Shown here: positions 36,409 through 46,400 of the stretch, piece by piece
Position numbering within the stretch: position 1 is the first letter of the stretch
Layout of the letters: every line of letters begins with the position of its first letter
Source: Cirrosporium novae-zelandiae
Taxonomy: Eukaryota
DNA: 64,000 nucleotides
Direction: 5' to 3'
Assembly (NCBI GenBank): GCA_026023565.1
Contig: JAPETS010000041.1
Coordinates: forward strand, 124,001 to 188,000
Notes under the pieces: model-generated
Database searches by the model: none
The model's input: only the letters and a program-made list of their open reading frames with translations
What the model was told of the DNA's origin: nothing
Position numbers and translations under genes: made by a program

Positions 36409-39319
36409 AGGTGGACCCCTTTGGTGAGCAGTTGACAGTTTTGATATATGATCGATCTCAGGGGGGTTATCTATCGAACTTAGGGATGCCGGGATATCAG
36501 AGGATGAAGCTGGGAGAAGGGAGTGAGGCGGATAACTATTCGGAGAATCCAGGGAAGGAAGCCCCGCCTGTCATACTAGCCTGACAAGAGAATCTAAGCA
36601 AAGAAAATAGAGGATGCAAAAATTCAGGGCTACAACACACACACACTCACACACACAACTACTACAGGGAAAGAAAAGATCAACAGTGCATATCGCAACA
36701 CAACCACGACCATGATCTTTCCCCTGCCATAGACTCTCTTCGGCGAATTTCTCAAAGGGAGACTAAAAACTAAAAGAAAGGATCAGACCACTTTTTTCCA
36801 ATTCCTTTCGTCAGCTAGCTACCAGCTGAACAATCACTCTGGTTCCGTGCTTGTCTTCCCTGTCATGCCGCTTTGTGCATAGCAAGGCACCTCCCTGCCC
36901 TTCTTTAACCCCTCTTCTTAGAATCTATGGGGTTCAATAAAAACGATATCTTTTATGGTGACGTTATATTCAACAATACCCCAATATCCCTCAGCGCATT
37001 GAAACAAGAGGAACCGGCAACTTTCCGGTACCTAGCTTAACTATATCTATGTATGTACGCATAGAATGCAGTGCAATGTTATGCGAGTAATTTGGTCTGA
37101 TTGTCGTCGCCCCAAGTCGCAAGGGAGAGAGCAATCCCAACCGGACCAGAGAGCTCACGTTGCAATCTCAGGACAATGGTCAACTCGTCGGTGCCGCCGA
37201 GGGCTATGACCTTGGAAACTAGAATCTTAAGTGTACGCATCACGGCAACAACAGCAAAGATAGCTTAGCAAGCTAGAGGGGGAGAGGGGTGATGAAACCT
37301 CCATAGCCAACCACGCAAGAGAAAAGACATCCTCTATTTGGAAGGAGGAAATATCTGACCTAACAAAACAACACCCACAAAAACCGAACCACCCATCAGG
37401 ACCTACCTACCTGAGCTGTCGTGACACCCCCCAAAACCTCGAACCAGTCAAACCACCCCTAAACTCGGGGCATCCGGCAGAAAAAAGAGAAAGAGAGGTT
37501 GTCTTTGTCGCACGTCAAACCTAGGATCGTATGGATTCGTTTCCATAGTCCCGACCGCTTGGACCGACCCTCATTTTTGGCACGAACTCCTCTCTTCCCC
37601 TCGGCTTATTTTTGCCTGCCATTTTTGCTTGCCTGGTGTCCGAGCGGACGAACCGGTTACGCTGGCTGGGGTTGTTGGGCTTTTTTTCGTACTATGTGGG
37701 TGAGTATGTGTGTCTGTGTGTCTGGTGTGTGCGTGTGCGACTGTTACAGATTGATCTTGCAGAGAGTAGATCTGTGCGCACGGCAGGTGTCCTGATTGCC
37801 TTTGCTCTATTGTCAACTGATGGATGAAGGGGTGCAAAAAAAAACATAACACTGGCGGTCCTGTGACAGGATTGAATAATGCGAAGCGAAATGTTAGTCG
37901 GATATTGATGCCTCCACGGTCAGTTTTCCTTGATTTGTGGAGATGGGGGATCTTGGTTCTTGATTCCGTTTTTGGAGGTTTACCTGCTTGTAAATTGTAG
38001 AGGTGGGATGAGATGAGATGGGGGGGGGAAGGTAATTAATGCTCAAGGTTTCTATCAAAGTAACTTTGTTTAAATGTTGTAGAAGGGATTTGTGGCATAC
38101 ACACACACGTATCTAGTACCTAAAAAAAAATAAGCTCTGGAAAAATATAACCCACTTCACAGAAGGAGGACGAGGACGAAGGACGAAGGATGAACATCTT
38201 TCTTTTTTTTTTTTTTCTTCTCTGCGCAAGACCAAATATAGCTACGTTAAAAATTCGGTTTCCATATTTCTTCATCACACGCAACCAACCTACTTTAACT
38301 ACCTAATCAAAACAACAAGTAGTAGAAGTAAAAGATAAAAAAGAGAAGGCAACTAACGCACAGCAGCAGTAGCAACGACAACAACATACACACACATACA
38401 CCACACATAGGCACTCTCACACATTTGCCAGTCTTCTTTCCTCTTCCACTTCCTCCTTCCCACTCCTCCCCTCCCTAGAGAGCACACAAAATACAATATG
38501 CCATCATCAGTCATATTCAATTGTATGTCTCAAGTTAGTGAAGGAGTTACGTATCCCATCCCCCTTAAATCACCCAGGTCAATTATATCAGAAAATTTTG
38601 TTGCCTCCCCCTTCCCACCCCCCCCAATGTCCTATCCGTCCAATGAGTCCCCTTCCTTTGTTGCCTTGGTGATAAATAATGAAAAGAAAAAGAAAATACT
38701 TAGTAGTAGTAAGTTAGAAAAAAAGTTTGTTCCCTTCTCAGGTTTTTACCAAATTCCCCTCGATGATGCCCTTTCTTTGATTGCTCACTACAGATCACGG
38801 CCGTGACATGACATAACCTGTTCGCCTCAAATTCCCCCGATCTTTCCCGAAACCTATTCTTTTTTTGTTTCGCCAGTCCCGTTGCCCCCCTATCCGATCC
38901 TTCCGAGTTCAGCCAGCGCCATCGCCATGTGAAGAGAAATGAAGGGAAGTACTAGAAATTAAAGTTCAAAAAGTCTAAGGTCCAAACAAGAAGCAAAGGT
39001 AGATTTCATAAGGCAGAATGAAGAAAACAAAATTGGAAACAACAATAAACACCCAAAACATAAAATGTCAATAACAATCGCTTGTTCCGTAAACATCGCT
39101 CCGGTCCTCGTCAAATGCTTCTCAAATTGCCGTATAGGGGACCTGTAGTAATCAGGGTATCTCTTCTGATGATGATTCGTGGGCTCGTCAAGTATGATGA
39201 TGGTGATGATGGTGATGATGATGATGATTTAGTAGCGTAGATCTTAAGCAAATGCTACGCTAAACCGAGGTGATTGTATGCCAGCATGGTCTCGTTCGTG
39301 AAAAATAAACAACGTGCCA

Positions 39320-42300
39320 TCATAAAGCCGTCTGCGTTATTTCAGGATAGTATCCTCGACTCGACTCGACTCCTTGGAATCTGCTTCCGCAGTTTCGAGA
39401 GCTTGTGCTCCCACCAACGGAGCCGTACGACCAGGCACTACCAAAACTAGGGAGCTGACGGTGGTGGTTACTTTGTGGAGAGTCTCGAGGATCCCGACGG
39501 TTGCTGTCGGTCATTTGAGAACGAGAGTCGGACGTGGAGGAAAGATTGAAACCAGATGGGGTGCCATTTACAGGTCTCATGGTTGCCTCCGAAGTAGAAG
39601 AGACAGGACGCGGGAGCTGTATACGATCTTGATGGGTAGACGATCGAGGATCTTCGTGTAATATTGGAGACGGGTAGTATTGATATCCTGGAGTCTCTTC
39701 GATTGCTGCTTCCTCTTCTGCAGTAAGGATCATCTCGACAGGTACATGGGAAGCTGGTGCACCATCGTAGCTGGCAGAGGAAGCCGAAGAAGGTAGTGAC
39801 ATGCTTGCGCTCCGCGAATGACCTTGTGTAGCATCAGGGCTATGATAAGAGTTGCCTCCTAGCCGTGATCCACCACTAACGTCGCTGTAGGAAATAGAGG
39901 GCCGCGATGGTCCCCCTGAGCCTCCAGAAGGGGGCATTGTGCTTCCCGGGCCTCCATCTCCATTTCCGCCAGAACCATCCGGACCCATGCTCGACGAGCT
40001 GTCGCGTGTCCTATCTTTGTAATGTCCTGGAGAGCGGCCCCGAACAATCATAGGCGCAGACTGTTTCGTAGCGATCTTCAAGAACCGAGATTCAGATGAA
40101 CTGCTAGATCTCCCAAGATCAGCGTACAACTCCACCACAAGATTGTAGTATTGTTGAGCTGCTCGTCGCTTTCCGTTGTTCGCAGTGGCTTTCTCAAACT
40201 GAATGCGCTCAAAAACAGCTTGATGAGGAGTTTGTCCTGCGAGTCCTGTTAGACCATTTGAATGATCATACCCCATCGACAGCCCAGAGCCTTGCAGCCC
40301 ACCTGAAACTGAAAACGGAGCCTCGAGCCTGTACGATTGGGAGGACCCAGCGTACGAGCTCAATGACCCCGTTGGATTGGGGAGTACTTTCAGTTTTGCT
40401 GGTTTCGATGTTTCGTCTTTGATTCGCTTGGGAGTATGCTGAACCAAGCCCATGGGTTTTCCCACCTCTCCATCTTGTATGGCAGAAATGGTCAGGTAGA
40501 AGCCATGAATAGGTTCGGGATTCTCTCGGTGGCTATGCAAAAACAATTGCACCGACGGCGCATTCGGTCGCAAGCTGAATGACGATTGGACCGAAAAATA
40601 ATTCCTACGGTAGCATGTCCACTCTGAACCCACTTGGAAAAAGCCCTTGTCAATTTTGGCTTGAACTTCAACATTTATAGGCTGATTGTCCATGGCAGTT
40701 ATGGGGTACAAGATTTTGGTCTTTTCGAATGGCGGTGCGTCCGAATTCATGGCGTTGGGATAAGAGGATGTGGGATCTAGCGTTAATGCATTATTTGAGT
40801 TTAGATAGCTAGGGTTTGATGGGGGTGAAATCGAGCTGTTTATCGAAGGGTCGATTGTTCGTGGGGTGCTATAAAAAGGTTTGGCAGTAAAGTCATTTGC
40901 TGTCCTTGGCGAGAGATTGTGCCTATTCATGCCGGGTGTTGCTGTCGTGTAGTTTTCCCTTGCGGCGCCAACCAACGATGGTGACATGGAGTGGTGGGTG
41001 CCCGGTGAGCGTGAAGGAGGAGGCATTCCGGCAACAGATTGACTGACAGTAGCAGAGATTAGTGTCAGGCTAGATCCGCTTCGTCGTACTGGGGATGAAG
41101 CAGTAAACACGAGAAACAGAAAGAGGAAGGAGAATAAACATACAACGCGGGCATTCGCGGTTTGATGTCAGACATGGTGTGGGCACTGAAGTGGGAATAG
41201 TTTGACACATGCGTAAATGGGGAGGAGGTCGAGGCAGCATCGGGGTCAGTGCTGCAGACAGATGCTCCGTTGTGGAAGACATCCGCTAATGGCGAATAAG
41301 CAATTGTGGAAGACACGGCTGACGCTGGGCTCGTAGATATGGACGCATATGTCGAGTCGGCTGGGCTCACGAAGAGACCAGGATGAGTTTGAAAACTGAA
41401 GTTTCACAAGCATATATTAGCCAAGCCTTCATTGGAGGTCGTCTGGTTCCCGGGGAAGTGTTCTCGAGGATAGCGCACGCTGATAGGCTCGAAAGTGCCG
41501 GATGCACCCCTCAGCTAATGCATGGCTAGAAAACGAACGGTGACGGAGCCTCTCCGCGTGATCGCACGAATGCCACGAGGCTTGTCGCAATAGGGCAAAT
41601 GCGCGACAGACAAAAGAAGCAAATCGTCAATTGATGTGCCACGCAGCTGGACTCATCGGCGGGACGAAGGAGGGGGGCACAGAGATTGATGAACCAGTGC
41701 AACGGAAAAGATGGCGCATGTAGAGAGTAACAACCCACCAGGCACAAGGTCTTGGGATCAAGTAAAACAAAAAAAAAACAAGCAACAAGCAGCAGGAGGA
41801 TCAGGGCCAAATTATGTAGAAATCCAACGAAAGGAGTGGGCTTACTGAACGTCCTGCACCTGGGCATCATTTGTGAGACATGGATAACGGACACTGTTGA
41901 CGAAGCTCAACGACGGAGGATGCAACAGGGAATGGGATAATGAGCCGCCCCGCGGAAGATGTTGCACAACCTCGTCGTTGGCGTAATTCGATGGGCTTGA
42001 GAAGCCTGAAGATTGATTGATAGAGTCTGATTGAGTAGAGGGGGGGTAGTCGGGCTGAAATGGTGACGAGTGGTGAAGGAGCGTTGCTGTAGGTGGTTGA
42101 ATTCCAGGTTAGCGAATCAGACCCAAGACGATGTGGCAGTCAAAAGTGCATCAGCAGGAGCGTGAAGATTTTCGGCTACAAGAGGAAAATCAGGAAATGG
42201 AAAATCAACCATCAGACGATGGCAAAGTGAACCAGGATCAGCCAGAGTATCGGGACGCAGGTAGACCAAGGTAGCCACCGAAATGGCCAGTCGCTGCGTT

Positions 42301-43475
42301 GATATCTGGCCTGGGATCGCTCACGTTGCACAAAGCTGGAGCAGCTTTCTCCAGATCGCCAGTTGGTCTGTTCAGCCGAAGATCAAGGGAAAAATGGAGG
42401 GGCAGGACAATGCGCAGTTTTGCTCGGCCGAAGCGAGACGCAAAAAAGACCCTCACCTCAAAAACAACAGAGGAATTCACAAACTGGCCCACAAAGGCTG
42501 CGGAAGGTGAGATTGATCTTGGGGGAAGTAAAATGGCTCGAGAAAGTGGAATCAGAAGTGTAGAAGTGAAGAAAGGAAGAAAAGAGTTGAGCGAAAGATC
42601 AAGGCACCCAAAGATCACCACCAGTAGTTCAGTAGTTCAGGTAAGTGAGGTCAAGGCACCTTTTTTTCTGAGTAGTCGAGTAACAAGGGTAAGAAGAGCA
42701 AGCAATAAAGGGAACTAGCAAGGTTGAACGAGAAGAAGGGTCGAAAGCTAAAGAGGTTTTAAAGCGGGTATAGATAGCAATTCGAGCAAGTCGAAGCAAT
42801 TCCAGCACTTGGACGGAGCAAGACCCCATTTACTGGGGGATGAATTGGGGGGGTGGGTTGAACATGGATGTTTGAGAAAGGTAAGCCAAGTTAAGGCCCC
42901 CTCGGGGCCAGCAGGTAAGGACCAAGTTGGGGCCAGTGGTTTAAAGAGAGGGGGAGGGGGGACCGGGTAGCTTAGGAGCTTAGGTGCTTAGGTAGGTAAG
43001 ATTAGATAATAATACCCGTGGTCCGTGATCCCCCGACTAGCCCCAAAGTAGATAGTCCAAGAAATTTAATAAACCATCCACCCACCATGGTCGAAATGGT
43101 AATTCGCTTCTTTTGGTCACCACAAGGGTAGAAAATTGGGCTGGCTTCCAAAAAAAATAAAATAATAAAATAATAAAAATCAACCATTCCCCTTCCACCC
43201 CCCCTCCTCCTCTTAACCCTTCCATAAATAAATCATAGTAATAATAATAATAGTAATAATAATAACAACAATAATAATAACCAAGTACAGTACTGGGTTG
43301 TTGTTGTTGTTGTTGTTGTGCAGTGCATGCTTTGTATTTTGCAGTGGAGAAAAGAAAAAAAGAAAAGAAAAGAAAAAAGAAAAAAAAGAAAAACACTTGC
43401 TTCTGGGTAGAATGGCTGGCAATGGTAATCTTCAACAGGTTCATATTGTGTAGATGACAACGTACCGTGGTTCAT
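39320..43475 (-). CDS. NDT80: NDT80/PhoG-family transcription factor (Ndt80/FSD-1-like); long model 741 aa in 4 exons, short model from ATG 41175 (584 aa)
   Basis: KIDKGFF, WTCYRRNYF, LVQHTPKR, FERIQFEKATANNGKRRAAQQYY, IVRGRSPGHY; exons 43475-43466, 42086-41846, 41395-41144, 41042-39320 are phase-compatible; the core is certain, the 5' exons are inferred. Confidence 0.85.
42970..42993. repeat. 8-bp tandem repeat (GCTTAGGW)x3
   Basis: gcttagga gcttaggt gcttaggt. Confidence 0.8.
43236..43393. repeat. Compound microsatellite: (AAT/AAC)n, (GTT)7, A/G-rich tract
   Basis: Directly visible; lies just inside the inferred NDT80 intron 1. Confidence 0.9.
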
Positions 43476-46400
43476 TGGGGAGATAGCCAGGGTCCGAGTG
43501 TGAACACCCAGGTTCACACCACAGATTCCGTTAAAGTCCGTCCGTCCACTCCAATCGTCTCCAGTCTCTTCGGTCAGTACTAAAATTCGTCCCGTCCGAT
43601 CAACAGATCCGATCCCTCAACAAACTGTTAACACAATCACATTCACACAAAAGTTCCCAGGTTCAAAACAACTAATCAAGGCCTTCCAGCCTGCTCAACT
43701 TATGTCTTACCTTAAATTGCTCTTCTACCCTTCTCCCTGATCAATGATCACAAGTGATACACCCCGCGTTCAGAGGAGGCCAGCAGCAGAAATGTCCCGC
43801 GATGATATCCTGTGACGACGGTACAGGATTGGACCTGTTTTGCTGCCACTGCTTACTCGAGACCTCTCCACCCCTTCCTTGCACAATGAAATATTCACAG
43901 ATGAATATCTTCGAGTAATAATACGCCGCCAAGCTCCTACCTTTTCCGCTCAAGGCTTCTGCCGCCTATCAGGGATGACAATTTGCGACGTCTCCGCCGG
44001 GCGTACACAGTAAACGAACCTTGAACAAGACTATCCCCGGGACGAGAGAGCTGGTGACACGAAGGCGTCTGCAGGTGCGACCAAATTAACGCAATAGTCC
44101 ACTCAAGTCCACTTACGGCTTGGCCGATTAAACCCTAAGCTTTGCGGATTCCAGGATTGATCAAGGGTTGGTCCAGGGTTATTTACGGACTATTCAAGGG
44201 TTGGGATCCAGAGTTGCCGCCAATCCCGCGAAGGTGAGAGATGGTCCCAACGATGGCGGGCGCTTGGGGCGATTGAGGGCTCTAGGGCCAAGGAATTGGT
44301 GCGTAAGGGAGCGTAAAGGCCTTTGGGTGGGGTTGCCGCCGCCAGTCCTCGACTTAAAGCCACGCGTGAGAATCAGTACCCTAGTGCAAGGTGAGCAATC
44401 CGAACAAGCAAGCGATGGTCCCCAATTGGTACCAGATCACCAAAAAGCACCAAGGCAAAAACTGGTCTGCAAAATATCTGGGCTATTCTCAACTATCTGA
44501 GAAAGAACGACCCACTTTGTATTGCCCGAATTGCTCTTAACTGCCCTTGTAATGGGAGTAGTGAAAATTAGATGTCCGAGTAATAGTCACTTAGTTTCAA
44601 TCTTCTTTCTCTCCCCTATTTCCTTTTTTTTGGATTTTCCTTTTCTTTTGATGGTAAAATGGTAAAATGCTGTGAGTTGAAAGTGCTTTTACTTCTTAAC
44701 AGTTTAATAATAATTGGAAGTGTTGATCCAATCAAATAACTTCTGTTTCCGGCGACCAGCAAAGAGGCTGTTCGGCAATAAATCCCAGGCTCTCCCTCAG
44801 TCTCTCAGTCTCTTCTTGTCTCTCAGTCTCGTACTCAGTAGATCCTCGGGCTTCTCAGGCCACAAGGCTCCAAAAGCTTTATTAAGGCTTTCAAGGCTTT
44901 TCAACCTCATTCAGAAAAGTCCCCGGTTGGCAGCTGTAATTGAGCTGCGGGTTCCAAAACGGTCCGGTCGCTAGATTGTGTGCACGTACCAACACCCCTC
45001 GAGAATTTGTCCAATCCCCAATGCCTCTCCTGAATTCCTGGATTCCTGGAAAAGATTCCGAGAAAGCAATCTTGGTGAAATCTACTTAATCCGACGTCAA
45101 GCTCACTCAGCCTTCCCTTCTCAGCTTTAGAATGCAGGAATAGTAGCAATCCAAAACCCAGGAACACCAACATGAAATTGCCCGGGATGCAGACTCAATT
45201 AATACTCGGGACGATCCTAAGAGATTATCTTGTTCCTTCTATTTCTCCGCGATCGGCCAGTCCGAGCACTTCCTGATATGTTTGTTTGATGGTTGATGAG
45301 GCGAAATCGCCGATTCACACTTAACCAGGTATATGGACAAGCACCCCGAATTGTCTTAGTTGAGATCAGTATCGCCGCGCAGCACCGCTTGTTGGTCGCT
45401 ACTTGACGGTGATCTTGGGGCGCTGAAAGCTTCTGCTGGAATATCGTGTGCTCTATCGTCTTAAAAATCCTCTGTTATAATGCTAGGTTCTTTGCCTGAT
45501 TGCTGACTGTTTCGGCGCCGGGCGAGGTGTACCTTTTTCCTTCACTACTTATCCTAAGATTGGCTAGCTAGGTCTTCAACAAATAGCCTCTCGAATTGTC
45601 GAGATGAGCAAGATCGTCGTAAGATAGAAAATGTAATTGTTCGAAGAGGGTAGTCTTCCACTGACTTCGATTTGGACGATTCTGGCTGTAACTAGCAAGG
45701 CCTATCTTATATGCCTGTTGAGGTTTGTCTGTCGTTGCTGATTTCATCTGGTTGCGGGCGCGAATAAATAGGTTTCACGAGCTGGCTTTTCTCCTTGAAA
45801 CCCTCGATATGATTTTCTTCTCTCGTCTTTTTGGCAGGATATGTTCAAACAGAGTAGAGCTGTCCACAAATACTAACGAATTGAGGGAAGGAGAGAACGG
45901 ATTGCAAAGTCAAAGTCAAGAGAAAAAAATGGTAGATACTTTGATACTTTTGTGGGTTGTACCCCAGGATTGTGAATACTAGGGGAGGGATTAGAAGGGC
46001 TGATATCTGAGCTCATCTAGCCAAATCGTACTTATGCTACACAGCCAGAGGAGAATAGCGCTGCACTGTCCAGCGGTGGCCGAAATAGGCGTGAGGCTTA
46101 CAGAGCCAACGAACAGCCAGGACTGGAAATTTGGGTATCAATGGAATTAATGGCCATTGGGAACTCGGTGGAAATTCATTGGGTCCTTGGGGATCATCGT
46201 GGCCCACTACTGATTCTGCCGTTATGTCAGCTGCGAGGATGAGCTGCCTGTGCTGATGAGCTGCGTCGGCCTTAACCCGGCAGGGTCTACGAAGGCATCT
46301 TGCAGCTGCGACGTTGCCTCCGTCTCTCTTTCGTCTGGACATTGTTCCTGCGCCGGTGCCAACTACACGGTTGGTGGCGGATCGATACAATGGCTTCGAC

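What the first reader, a model, noticed from the sequence alone, without database searches (positions are those of the whole stretch)
41144..43475. Hidden 157-aa N-terminal extension of the NDT80 factor via a 10-nt coding micro-exon and a 1379-nt intron
Seen: ATG AAC CAC G|GTACGT at 43475-43460 is a phase-1 donor. It joins the acceptor GCTAAC...TACAG at 42087. The next 241-nt exon is stop-free (ATLLHHSSPFQPDYPP...DAQVQDVH) and splices GTAAGC...GCTAAT...TTCAG (450 nt, phase 2) into a stop-free 252-nt exon that contains the obvious MSDIKP start. All phases match, giving 741 aa versus 584 aa. Most introns in this window are ~50-100 nt. Known: NDT80-family factors regulate fungal sexual development, and from memory Neurospora fsd-1 has several 5' isoforms. 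Inference: alternative promoters yield isoforms with and without a Ser/Pro/His-rich disordered domain.
Basis: partly seen in the sequence, partly recalled or inferred. Interest (0 to 1): 0.72.

Follow-up and report, generated by a model that had tools for sequence, protein, structure and literature searches.

The report
Conserved N-terminal extension of ndtA gene

Summary
The four exons join to 741 aa, against 584 aa from MSDIKP.

The extension is real coding sequence:
- Its start, MNHATLL, is identical to Eurotiomycete orthologues.
- Five related metagenome loci share the three introns, the phases (1, 2, 2) and a 10-13 nt coding first exon.
- One cDNA-like contig, L022, encodes the whole extension without introns.
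- dN/dS of the extension is 0.13-0.25.

The extension is not truly hidden. The public 825-aa model of this gene uses the same ATG and donor, but adds 94 residues with no homologue anywhere.

The gene groups with Aspergillus nidulans ndtA (AN6015), whose 521-aa reference model starts at the position of MSDIKP.

The alternative-promoter isoform idea has no direct evidence; no RNA run was listed.

By-product: intron 2 carries a deeply conserved non-coding block of unknown function.

The parts
43466..43475 (-). Coding part of exon 1: ATG AAC CAC G (M N H plus the first base of Ala). It is followed by the donor GTACGT in phase 1. The exon's 5' UTR extends upstream to an unknown transcription start.
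   Evidence: the only phase-1 candidate in 3.4 kb. Homologous 10-13 nt coding first exons occur in L001, L003, L021, L071, L048, L065 and L066 (10 nt) and in L008, L028 and L004 (13 nt). The start MNHATLL is identical in P0128 and near-identical in P0129 (MNHATFL).
42087..43465 (-). Intron 1, 1379 nt. The branch-like GCTAAC and the acceptor CTACAG are at its 3' end. It is inflated by simple repeats.
   Evidence: One search found 11 TRF rows, including (AAT)n, (GTT)n and A-rich runs. In relatives the homologous intron is 352-434 nt.
41846..42086 (-). Exon 2, 241 nt (A)TLLHHSSPFQPDYPP...DAQVQDV(H).
   Evidence: blastp E<=1e-3 to 10 of 268 stored proteins, and tblastn E<=1e-3 to 4 of 79 loci. In the profile search, 27 of 70 hits are ORFs that stop at this exon's 3' junction.
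41396..41845 (-). Intron 2, 450 nt, phase 2. Its position is conserved and it is long in all relatives examined (about 313-443 nt).
41475..41594 (-). Conserved non-coding block inside intron 2. The GATCACGCG core is at 41555-41563 and TCTAGCCATGCATTAGCTG at 41512-41530, about 130 nt upstream of exon 3.
   Evidence: Alignment. nhmmer E=2.4e-16 in the window, and hits in 22 loci, always once and in intron 2. The core motif occurs in the gene's orientation in 24 loci. No Rfam match and no conserved RNA fold.
41144..41395 (-). Exon 3, 252 nt: FQTHPGLFVSPADS...STSPASAVSS...HTMSDIKPRMPA. It contains the MSDIKP Met, whose ATG is at 41174-41172.
41043..41143 (-). Intron 3, 101 nt, phase 2 (GTATGT...CTGAC/CTAAT...GTCAG).
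   Evidence: The homologous introns are 90-96 nt in five loci.
39320..41042 (-). Exon 4, 1723 nt including the stop TGA. It holds the NDT80/PhoG DNA-binding domain at about 40010-40624.
   Evidence: Pfam PF05224, E=1.3e-40, 140 bits against a cutoff of 27. phmmer to yeast Ndt80 structures, E=2.7e-10.
42267..42497 (-). Extra exon of the public 825-aa model only (AFVGQFVNSS...GGYL). Judged spurious; it lies inside intron 1.
   Evidence: donor GTCTAC. With the next part it forms a 94-aa insert that gives 0 of 268 proteins at blastp E<=10 and only chance-level tblastn hits (E>=2.6) in 79 loci.
42123..42175 (-). Second extra exon of the public model only (AENLHAPADALLTATSSW). Judged spurious. That model then enters exon 2 late, at 42054.
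   Evidence: donor GTCTGA.

Best explanation
This is the ndtA/Ndt80-group NDT80-family transcription factor gene of a filamentous ascomycete. An identical protein stretch is filed at NCBI under a Cirrosporium novae-zelandiae assembly.

Translation starts at ATG 43475. After only 10 coding bases a phase-1 intron (1379 nt here) is removed. Exon 2, a 450-nt phase-2 intron, exon 3, a 101-nt phase-2 intron and the large last exon follow.

Exons 1-3 encode a roughly 170-residue, Ser/Pro-rich N-terminal region that is predicted to be disordered. It carries short conserved motifs:
- MNHxTLL..F..DYP
- RRxGxLG
- NGxRY
- VQDVxF
- SPxDS
- STSPSSxxSSxAFSP
- MS[DE][IF]RxR

This region precedes the DNA-binding domain. 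I infer, without having shown it, that it is a regulatory or activation region.

Shown: the gene structure, its conservation and purifying selection. Inferred: the role of the region. MSDIKP is most likely an internal residue of a conserved motif. It has been taken for a start because gene callers pick the first ATG before the big exon.
For: Coordinates and frame: confirmed.

N-terminal agreement with long homologues:
- Homologues with long N-termini have 162-171 residues before the MPPPSRSP motif (P0075 171, P0096 171, P0117 165, P0103 162).
- The extension aligns block by block with these homologues.
- Eurotiomycete orthologues start MNHATLLQ (P0128), MNHATFLH (P0129), MHHTALLQ (P0123) and MNNTTLLE (P0130).

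CDNA-like and genomic relatives:
- L022 encodes MNH-TLLQNS..FQLDYP...LQDVSSF... through to the stop as one ORF. It is 37% identical over 169 aa, E=2e-19.
- The related genomic locus L021 has introns at all three junctions.

Gene models built in five loci (L001, L003, L004, L008, L048):
- The same three introns and phases are present.
- Exon 1 coding part is 10-13 nt, intron 1 358-434 nt, exon 2 229-238 nt, intron 2 368-443 nt, exon 3 228-243 nt, intron 3 90-96 nt.
- A sixth locus, L071, did not yield a sensible automatic model.

Selection:
- dN/dS of the extension is 0.25 (L008/L028, 161 codons) and 0.13 (L001/L003, 154 codons).
- The first 100 codons of exon 4 in the same pairs give 0.215 and 0.264.

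Profile of the extension against 1.84 billion proteins:
- 70 hits at E<=1e-3.
- 27 are ORFs ending at the exon 2/3 junction, 7 begin at exon 3, and 14 span the junction.

The GenBank-only donors are GTCTAC and GTCTGA.

Structure prediction: no fold, mean pLDDT 50.8.
Against: - There is no transcript evidence from this organism; no RNA run was listed.
- L022 and the Logan-derived proteins are only inferred to be cDNA-like, from contig size and the lack of introns.
- Identity of the window's extension to any single relative is modest (27-43% in tblastn), and the sequence is compositionally biased.
- Most of the listed homologues start at MPPPSRSPG in the last exon. I attribute this to ORF calling on unspliced contigs, but I did not prove it.
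- The 1379-nt intron 1 is three to four times longer than in relatives.
- The function of the region is entirely inferred.
Confidence: 0.9

Rival explanations
1. Two products. Besides the 741-aa protein, a transcript starting inside intron 2 (an internal promoter), or leaky scanning, yields the 584-aa MSDIKP form without the disordered region.
For: - The Met is present at this aligned position in most relatives.
- Intron 2 is long in every relative (about 313-443 nt).
- Intron 2 is more conserved than intron 1: 86% and 74% identity against 63% and 65%.
- It holds a deeply conserved block about 100-140 nt upstream of exon 3.
- The reference A. nidulans ndtA model starts at the equivalent Met.
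Against: - There is no RNA evidence of any kind.
- Peptide conservation continues across the Met (NERMSDFRSHR, TNMSEIRPRMPS), as expected for an internal residue.
- P0096 has Val at this position, and L004 has no Met there.
- The window has several ATGs between the block and MSDIKP. These would hinder scanning from a start inside intron 2.
- Database models starting at this Met are explained by gene callers.
Confidence: 0.2
2. The public 825-aa GenBank model is right. Two further coding exons (42267-42497 and 42123-42175) lie in what the reader calls intron 1, and exon 2 starts at 42054.
For: It is the deposited annotation, and all of its frames are open.
Against: - The 94-aa insert has no counterpart in any aligned homologue.
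- It gives 0 of 268 proteins at blastp E<=10, and only chance-level tblastn hits in 79 loci.
- Its donors are weak (GTCTAC, GTCTGA).
- It deletes the conserved TLLHHSSPFQ stretch that relatives retain.
- It gives 257 residues before the MPPPS motif, against 162-173 in relatives.
Confidence: 0.03
3. Only the 584-aa protein is made. Exons 1-3 upstream of MSDIKP are untranslated leader, and the open frames are chance.
For: Many database models, including A. nidulans AN6015 (521 aa), start at or after this Met.
Against: - dN/dS is 0.13-0.25 in the extension.
- Peptide-level conservation holds across several fungal classes while the introns diverge.
- L022 has a contiguous ORF.
Confidence: 0.03
4. 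The conserved intron-2 block is a regulated alternative 3' splice site. It has a branch-like GATCAC core, then a T-rich run, then CTAG. Using it would give an unproductive mRNA and so tune NdtA levels.
For: - The core lies 29-38 nt upstream of a pyrimidine-preceded CTAG in 6 of 6 sequences that have the full block.
- Used as an acceptor, it gives a premature stop after 10-37 codons in 6 of 6.
- CTAG acceptors are used elsewhere in these genes.
Against: - This rests purely on a sequence pattern.
- GATCAC is a poor match to the fungal branch consensus CTRAY (recalled, not tested).
- The Dothideomycete-like loci keep only the core, not the CTAG part.
- No reads are available.
Confidence: 0.12

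Closest known systems
[quoted passage not shown] 2013, PMC3821154; passages read)
   Same: - Same Pfam domain.
- The window protein's best Aspergillus hits (P0092, P0108) are 58-62% identical to the AN6015 family over 96-100% of the query.
- AN6015 itself (P0264) sits in the 90% cluster of P0184.
- Relatives in the neighbouring 90% clusters (P0250, P0254) and a same-cluster member (P0268) carry the homologous N-terminal extension.
   Different: - The reference AN6015 model (521 aa) starts at MPDFRAHR, the position of MSDIKP, and so lacks the extension.
- The window protein is only about 44-47% identical to the Aspergillus proteins over 60-70% of its length.
- Function in this fungus is untested.
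Saccharomyces cerevisiae Ndt80 (solved DNA-binding domain, e.g. 2etw, 1mnn)
   Same: The Ig-fold DNA-binding domain is recognisably homologous (E=2.7e-10). The IDxGF..EW.CY+RNYF, LVQHT.KR.K and RGRSP..Y motifs are shared.
   Different: The part of the query before the DNA-binding domain did not align to the solved Ndt80 chains, which are constructs of the DNA-binding domain only. From recall, yeast NDT80 has no introns. Overall similarity is low outside the domain.
XprG/RON1 and VIB-1 clades of Pezizomycotina NDT80-like factors (Kappel et al. 2016, PMC4950302; passages read)
   Same: Same DNA-binding family. That paper also noted that gene models in the family often had to be deduced by hand.
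   Different: - XprG/RON1 genes are often linked to the GlcNAc catabolic cluster. None of the 20 neighbouring ORFs scanned here belongs to it.
- No XprG or VIB-1 sequence was available to me for a direct comparison or a tree.
Neurospora crassa FSD-1 (NCU09915)
   Same: According to Kappel et al. 2016 (passages read), FSD-1 is the characterised filamentous-fungus member of the Ndt80 superbranch. This gene appears to belong to that superbranch through NdtA.
   Different: No FSD-1 sequence was compared.

Membership tests
[quoted passage not shown] | A DNA-binding domain matching the family profile above its gathering score | tested here: met
   E=1.3e-40, 140 bits against a cutoff of 27. The match covers profile positions 1-180 of 180 and residues 140-344 of the exon-4 translation.
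[quoted passage not shown] | Sequence homology to the solved Ndt80 DNA-binding domain, with conserved core motifs | tested here: met
   phmmer E=2.7e-10 to 2etw/1mnn. WTCYRRNYF, ATANNGKRR and VRGRSP.HY are invariant in a 25-sequence alignment.
[quoted passage not shown] | Sequence-specific DNA binding and transcriptional activation | not testable with these tools
   This needs EMSA, ChIP or reporter assays.
NdtA/FSD-1/Ndt80 orthologue group | Closest Aspergillus relatives are the AN6015 (ndtA) family | tested here: met
   The window's best Aspergillus hits, P0092 and P0108, score E=5e-202 and 1e-182 against the ndtA-family query P0185. AN6015 is in the cluster of P0184, which is 88% identical to P0185.
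NdtA/FSD-1/Ndt80 orthologue group | Placement inside the Ndt80 superbranch, and outside XprG/RON1 and VIB-1, on a tree with named references | not tested
   No XprG, RON1, VIB-1 or FSD-1 sequences were at hand, so no tree was built.
NdtA/FSD-1/Ndt80 orthologue group | Shared gene architecture and N-terminal region (a 10-13 nt coding first exon, introns in phases 1, 2, 2, and an MNHxTLL start) | tested here: met
   This feature is defined by this work, not by the literature.
XprG/RON1 clade | Frequent linkage to GlcNAc catabolic genes (hxk3, dac1, dam1, ngt1, nag3; Kappel 2016). This is typical rather than strictly defining. | tested here: not met
   The 20 ORFs scanned between 23 kb and 63 kb of the window hit AMP-binding, Methyltransf_16, eIF3g, Hsp70, DAHP synthase, thymidylate synthase and similar families. 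None is a GlcNAc gene.

The most novel reading that the evidence does not exclude
Intron 2 of ndtA orthologues carries a cis-element conserved across the window's genome and lichen-fungus-like and Dothideomycete-like loci: GTGGC..GATCACRCG..TTYTCTAGYCATGCATTAGCTG. Their proteins are only about 40% identical.

The novel reading is that this element controls expression of this regulator, whose Aspergillus orthologue is needed for sexual development. It could act as an internal promoter giving an N-terminally truncated NdtA, or as a regulated unproductive 3' splice site. Either way the long 5' introns would be a conserved regulatory device rather than junk.
Probability: 0.25. Interest if true: 0.6.

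Novelty: already known. Interest (0 to 1): 0.33.

Why it matters
For this genome the result is a gene-model correction. The right protein is 741 aa, not the deposited 825 aa and not the 584 aa of the obvious ORF.

More generally, the ndtA/Ndt80-group gene of many filamentous ascomycetes starts with only 10-13 coding bases before a long intron. Gene callers therefore often lose or garble a conserved N-terminal region of about 170 residues. The reference A. nidulans AN6015 model appears to lack it too.

Anyone tagging, truncating or complementing ndtA or fsd-1 orthologues should use the long model.

The conserved intron-2 block is a testable lead on how this sexual-development regulator is controlled.

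Tried and rejected
- **RNA evidence.** The look-up of sequencing runs (kind rna) on 39300-43700 listed no RNA holder.
- **Whole genome.** None is held for this window, so paralogues in the same genome could not be counted.
- **Hutchison and Glass 2010 (PMC2927755).** The paper is not held.
- **Literature on the extension or isoforms.** Three searches returned 13, 4 and 3 papers: NDT80/XprG/VIB-1/FSD-1, fsd-1/Neurospora/isoforms/NCU09915 and ndtA/Aspergillus/Ndt80/sexual development. In the passages I read of PMC4683649, PMC3821154, PMC4950302 and PMC11904784, none describes an N-terminal extension, a micro first coding exon or isoforms of ndtA or fsd-1. I saw no supplements and no figures.
- **Rfam.** A scan of 41000-43900 on both strands at E<=1 gave only a chance CrcZ-like hit in a repeat (16.9 bits against a gathering score of 95).
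- **RNA structure of the intron-2 block.** RNAalifold on 9 sequences predicted 3 pairs, none with covariation, at -0.72 kcal/mol. A structured RNA is rejected.
- **Ndt80 MSE core (CRCAAAW).** There were 47 matches in the window against 43.4 expected, with no clustering at the gene. Autoregulatory MSE enrichment is rejected.
- **First extension alignment (A3).** It was built from exon pieces only and was misaligned, so I discarded it. A4 replaced it.
- **Automatic gene model for L071.** It was nonsensical and I dropped it from the structure table. Its exon 1 and intron 1 were read by eye.
- **nhmmer profile of the block.** It found nothing in the Eurotiales-like loci.
- **The search of earlier findings.** It returned nothing for this genome.
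Full report
**Observation**

On the minus strand the sequence reads tccccaATGAACCACG|gtacgt, with the ATG at 43475-43473. The other sites are the acceptor ...gattcgctaacc...cctacag| ending at 42087, the donor CGTTCA|gtaagc after 41846, the acceptor aacttcag| ending at 41396, the donor CGCGTT|gtatgt after 41144, and the acceptor ctgtcag| ending at 41043.

Joining 43475-43466, 42086-41846, 41395-41144 and 41042-39320 gives 2226 nt, with no internal stop, and 741 aa. MSDIKP starts at residue 158, leaving 584 aa. The introns are 1379, 450 and 101 nt, in phases 1, 2 and 2. The last exon holds an NDT80_PhoG domain (E=1.3e-40).

In the 3.4 kb upstream of exon 2 I searched for an ATG followed by 3k+1 bases (k = 1-7, no stop) and a consensus donor.

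**What public data say about this gene**

A protein identical to the last exon's product is on record: P0001, 825 aa, named at NCBI as a hypothetical protein of a Cirrosporium novae-zelandiae assembly. It begins MNHA, so it uses the same ATG and the same donor.

- The insert has no counterpart in any aligned homologue.
- It gives 0 of 268 stored proteins at blastp E<=10.
- In 79 loci it gives only chance-level tblastn hits, with E>=2.6.
- Its donors are GTCTAC and GTCTGA.

**Is the extension coding?**

Most of the 120 listed homologues start at MPPPSRSPG, the first Met of the big exon. Most come from ORF calls on metagenome or read-assembly contigs, so they are not evidence against upstream exons. 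I infer this; I did not prove it.

Homologues with long N-termini have 162-171 residues before that motif. They align block by block: MN.., DYP, RRxG.LG, NG.RY, VQDV.F at the exon 2/3 junction, SP.DS, STSPSS..SS.AFSP and MS[DE][IF]R.R.

A second search from an intronless relative returned Eurotiomycete proteins starting MNHATLLQ (P0128), MNHATFLH (P0129), MHHTALLQ (P0123), MNNTTLLE (P0130) and MNQSTLLQ (P0133). The window's joined start is MNHATLLHH.

**DNA of relatives**

A scan of metagenome contigs gave 79 loci with upstream DNA. tblastn with the extension found exon 2 and exon 3 homologues upstream of the main exon in many of them.

Locus L022 (3094 bp) encodes the whole protein as one ORF, from MNHTLLQNSFQLDYP to the stop. 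It is 37% identical to the window's extension over 169 aa (E=2e-19). The related genomic locus L021 has extra sequence of 352, about 313 and about 68 nt exactly at the three junctions. L022 is therefore either a spliced-mRNA-like contig or a gene that has lost its introns. In both cases it confirms the joins.

Short coding first exons with a phase-1 donor were found in the following loci:
- L001: ATGAATCACA|gtaagc
- L021: ATGAATCATA|gtaagc
- L003: ATGCATCACA|gtaagc
- L071: ATGAATTCAG|gtaagt
- L048 and L065: ATGAACCAAG|gtcagt
- L066: ATGAATCAAG|gcaagt, a GC donor
- L008 and L028: 13 nt, MNNN
- L004: 13 nt, MDRD

Exhaustive splice-site enumeration scored against the window's model gave the same architecture in five of six loci tried. 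L071 failed. L028 was later modelled by hand, by analogy with L008, and matches it.

| Sequence | Exon 1 coding | Intron 1 | Exon 2 | Intron 2 | Exon 3 | Intron 3 |
|---|---|---|---|---|---|---|
| Window | 10 | 1379 | 241 | 450 | 252 | 101 |
| L001 | 10 | 358 | 238 | 368 | 243 | 92 |
| L003 | 10 | 420 | 235 | 404 | 228 | 93 |
| L004 | 13 | 415 | 232 | 443 | 228 | 92 |
| L008 | 13 | 384 | 229 | 372 | 243 | 92 |
| L048 | 10 | 434 | 229 | 437 | 231 or 237 | 96 or 90 |

The window's intron 1 is inflated by simple repeats.

**Selection**

| Pair | dN/dS, extension | dN/dS, first 100 codons of exon 4 |
|---|---|---|
| L008 / L028 | 0.25 (161 codons) | 0.215 |
| L001 / L003 | 0.13 (154 codons) | 0.264 |

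The extension therefore evolves as coding sequence.

A profile of the extension (alignment A4, 24 rows) was searched against 1.84 billion representative proteins and found 70 at E<=1e-3:
- 27 are short ORFs whose match ends at the exon 2/3 junction and at the ORF's own end.
- 7 start at exon 3.
- 14 span the junction.
- 7 are 500 aa or longer. The two new ones I read, P0284 and P0320, carry the NDT80 motifs.

**Which NDT80-like gene?**

Kappel et al. 2016 (PMC4950302, passages read) divide the Pezizomycotina proteins into an Ndt80 superbranch (which includes FSD-1), an XprG/RON1 clade and a VIB-1 clade.

- The window protein's best Aspergillus hits (P0092, P0108) belong to a family whose Nidulantes members I searched with (P0185).
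- The 90% cluster of P0184, which is 88% identical to P0185, contains 'AN6015.2 / protein ndtA [Aspergillus nidulans FGSC A4]' (P0264, 521 aa).
- The window protein also matches the solved yeast Ndt80 domain at E=2.7e-10.
- No GlcNAc-cluster gene lies among the 20 neighbouring ORFs scanned.

I therefore file the gene with ndtA and the Ndt80 group. No tree with named XprG, VIB-1 or FSD-1 references was built.

The AN6015 reference model starts MPDFRAHR, at the position of MSDIKP. A same-cluster Logan protein (P0268, 637 aa) and close relatives (P0250, P0254) carry the extension. The reference model is therefore probably truncated in the same way as the 'obvious' 584-aa reading here.

**Nature of the region**

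The extension is 21% Ser, 9.6% Pro and 7.6% His. AlphaFold2 on the L022 extension with alignment A4 gave mean pLDDT 50.8, pTM 0.14 and no secondary structure. This is consistent with an intrinsically disordered region carrying short linear motifs. A role as a regulatory or activation region is my inference only.

**The isoform claim**

Nothing here tests it directly.

For it:
- The Met is widely, though not universally, conserved.
- Intron 2 is unusual (see the by-product section below).

Against it:
- Peptide conservation runs straight across the Met.
- Several ATGs lie between the intron-2 block and MSDIKP.

I put it at about 0.2.

**By-product: a conserved block in intron 2**

Intron 2 is as conserved as the exons between close pairs: 86% and 74% identity, against 63% and 65% for intron 1.

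It contains a block, GTGGC..GATCAC[A/G]CG..TT[T/C]TCTAG[C/T]CATGCATTAGCTG, shared by the window (41475-41594) and by L001, L003, L004, L008 and L028. The GATCACACGAC core is also present in L048, L065, L066 and L071.

- An nhmmer profile finds the block once per locus, always in intron 2, in 22 loci plus the window. It finds nothing in the Eurotiales-like loci.
- The core occurs once in the 64-kb window.
- It matches no Rfam family and has no conserved fold.
- Read as a 3' splice site, its CTAG would give a premature stop in 6 of 6 sequences. That is an idea, not a finding.

**Verdict**

The isoform part is untested.

As a discovery it is ordinary: a conserved N-terminal region of a known transcription-factor family, already present in many database models. 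It has practical value for annotation, and it leaves one open lead in intron 2.

Noticed in passing
window 41475-41594 (- strand), inside intron 2; also L001 965-1073, L003 9143-9275, L004 9476-9607, L008 7773-7891, L028 6944-7064, L048 9472-9595, L066 898-1024, L071 9540-9666: A deeply conserved non-coding block, GTGGC..GATCACRCG..TTYTCTAGYCATGCATTAGCTG, lies about 100-140 nt upstream of exon 3. It is shared between genomes whose proteins are only about 40% identical. It contains the mini-ORF ATG CAT TAG. It has no Rfam match and no conserved fold. Its function is unknown.
   Followed up: partly
window 42267-42497 and 42123-42175 (- strand): The deposited 825-aa model of this gene (P0001) contains two exons with weak donors (GTCTAC, GTCTGA). 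They add 94 residues that have no homologue, so they are probably gene-predictor artefacts.
   Followed up: yes
P0264 (A. nidulans AN6015/ndtA, 521 aa) versus P0268, P0250, P0254: The reference ndtA model starts at MPDFRAHR. Same-cluster or near relatives have 110-135 more N-terminal residues, homologous to the window's extension. The model-organism annotation probably misses the short first coding exon.
   Followed up: partly
L066 41-56: Intron 1 of this relative appears to use a GC donor (ATGAATCAAG|gcaagt) at the conserved position.
   Followed up: no
window 42087-43465 (intron 1): Intron 1 is 3-4 times longer than in relatives. It is full of simple repeats, (AAT)n at 43231-43280, (GTT)n at 43297-43319 and an A-rich run at 43348-43393 (plus-strand units), and has strongly skewed composition.
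   Followed up: partly
L022 1-3094: This metagenome-collection contig carries the whole orthologue without any of the three introns that the related genomic locus L021 has. It also has UTR-sized flanks of 443 and about 520 nt. It looks like an assembled mRNA rather than genomic DNA.
   Followed up: partly
window 43476-46000: About 2.5 kb upstream of the start codon has no ORF of 130 aa or more. This is an unusually long promoter or leader region for this compact window. I did not examine it further.
   Followed up: no
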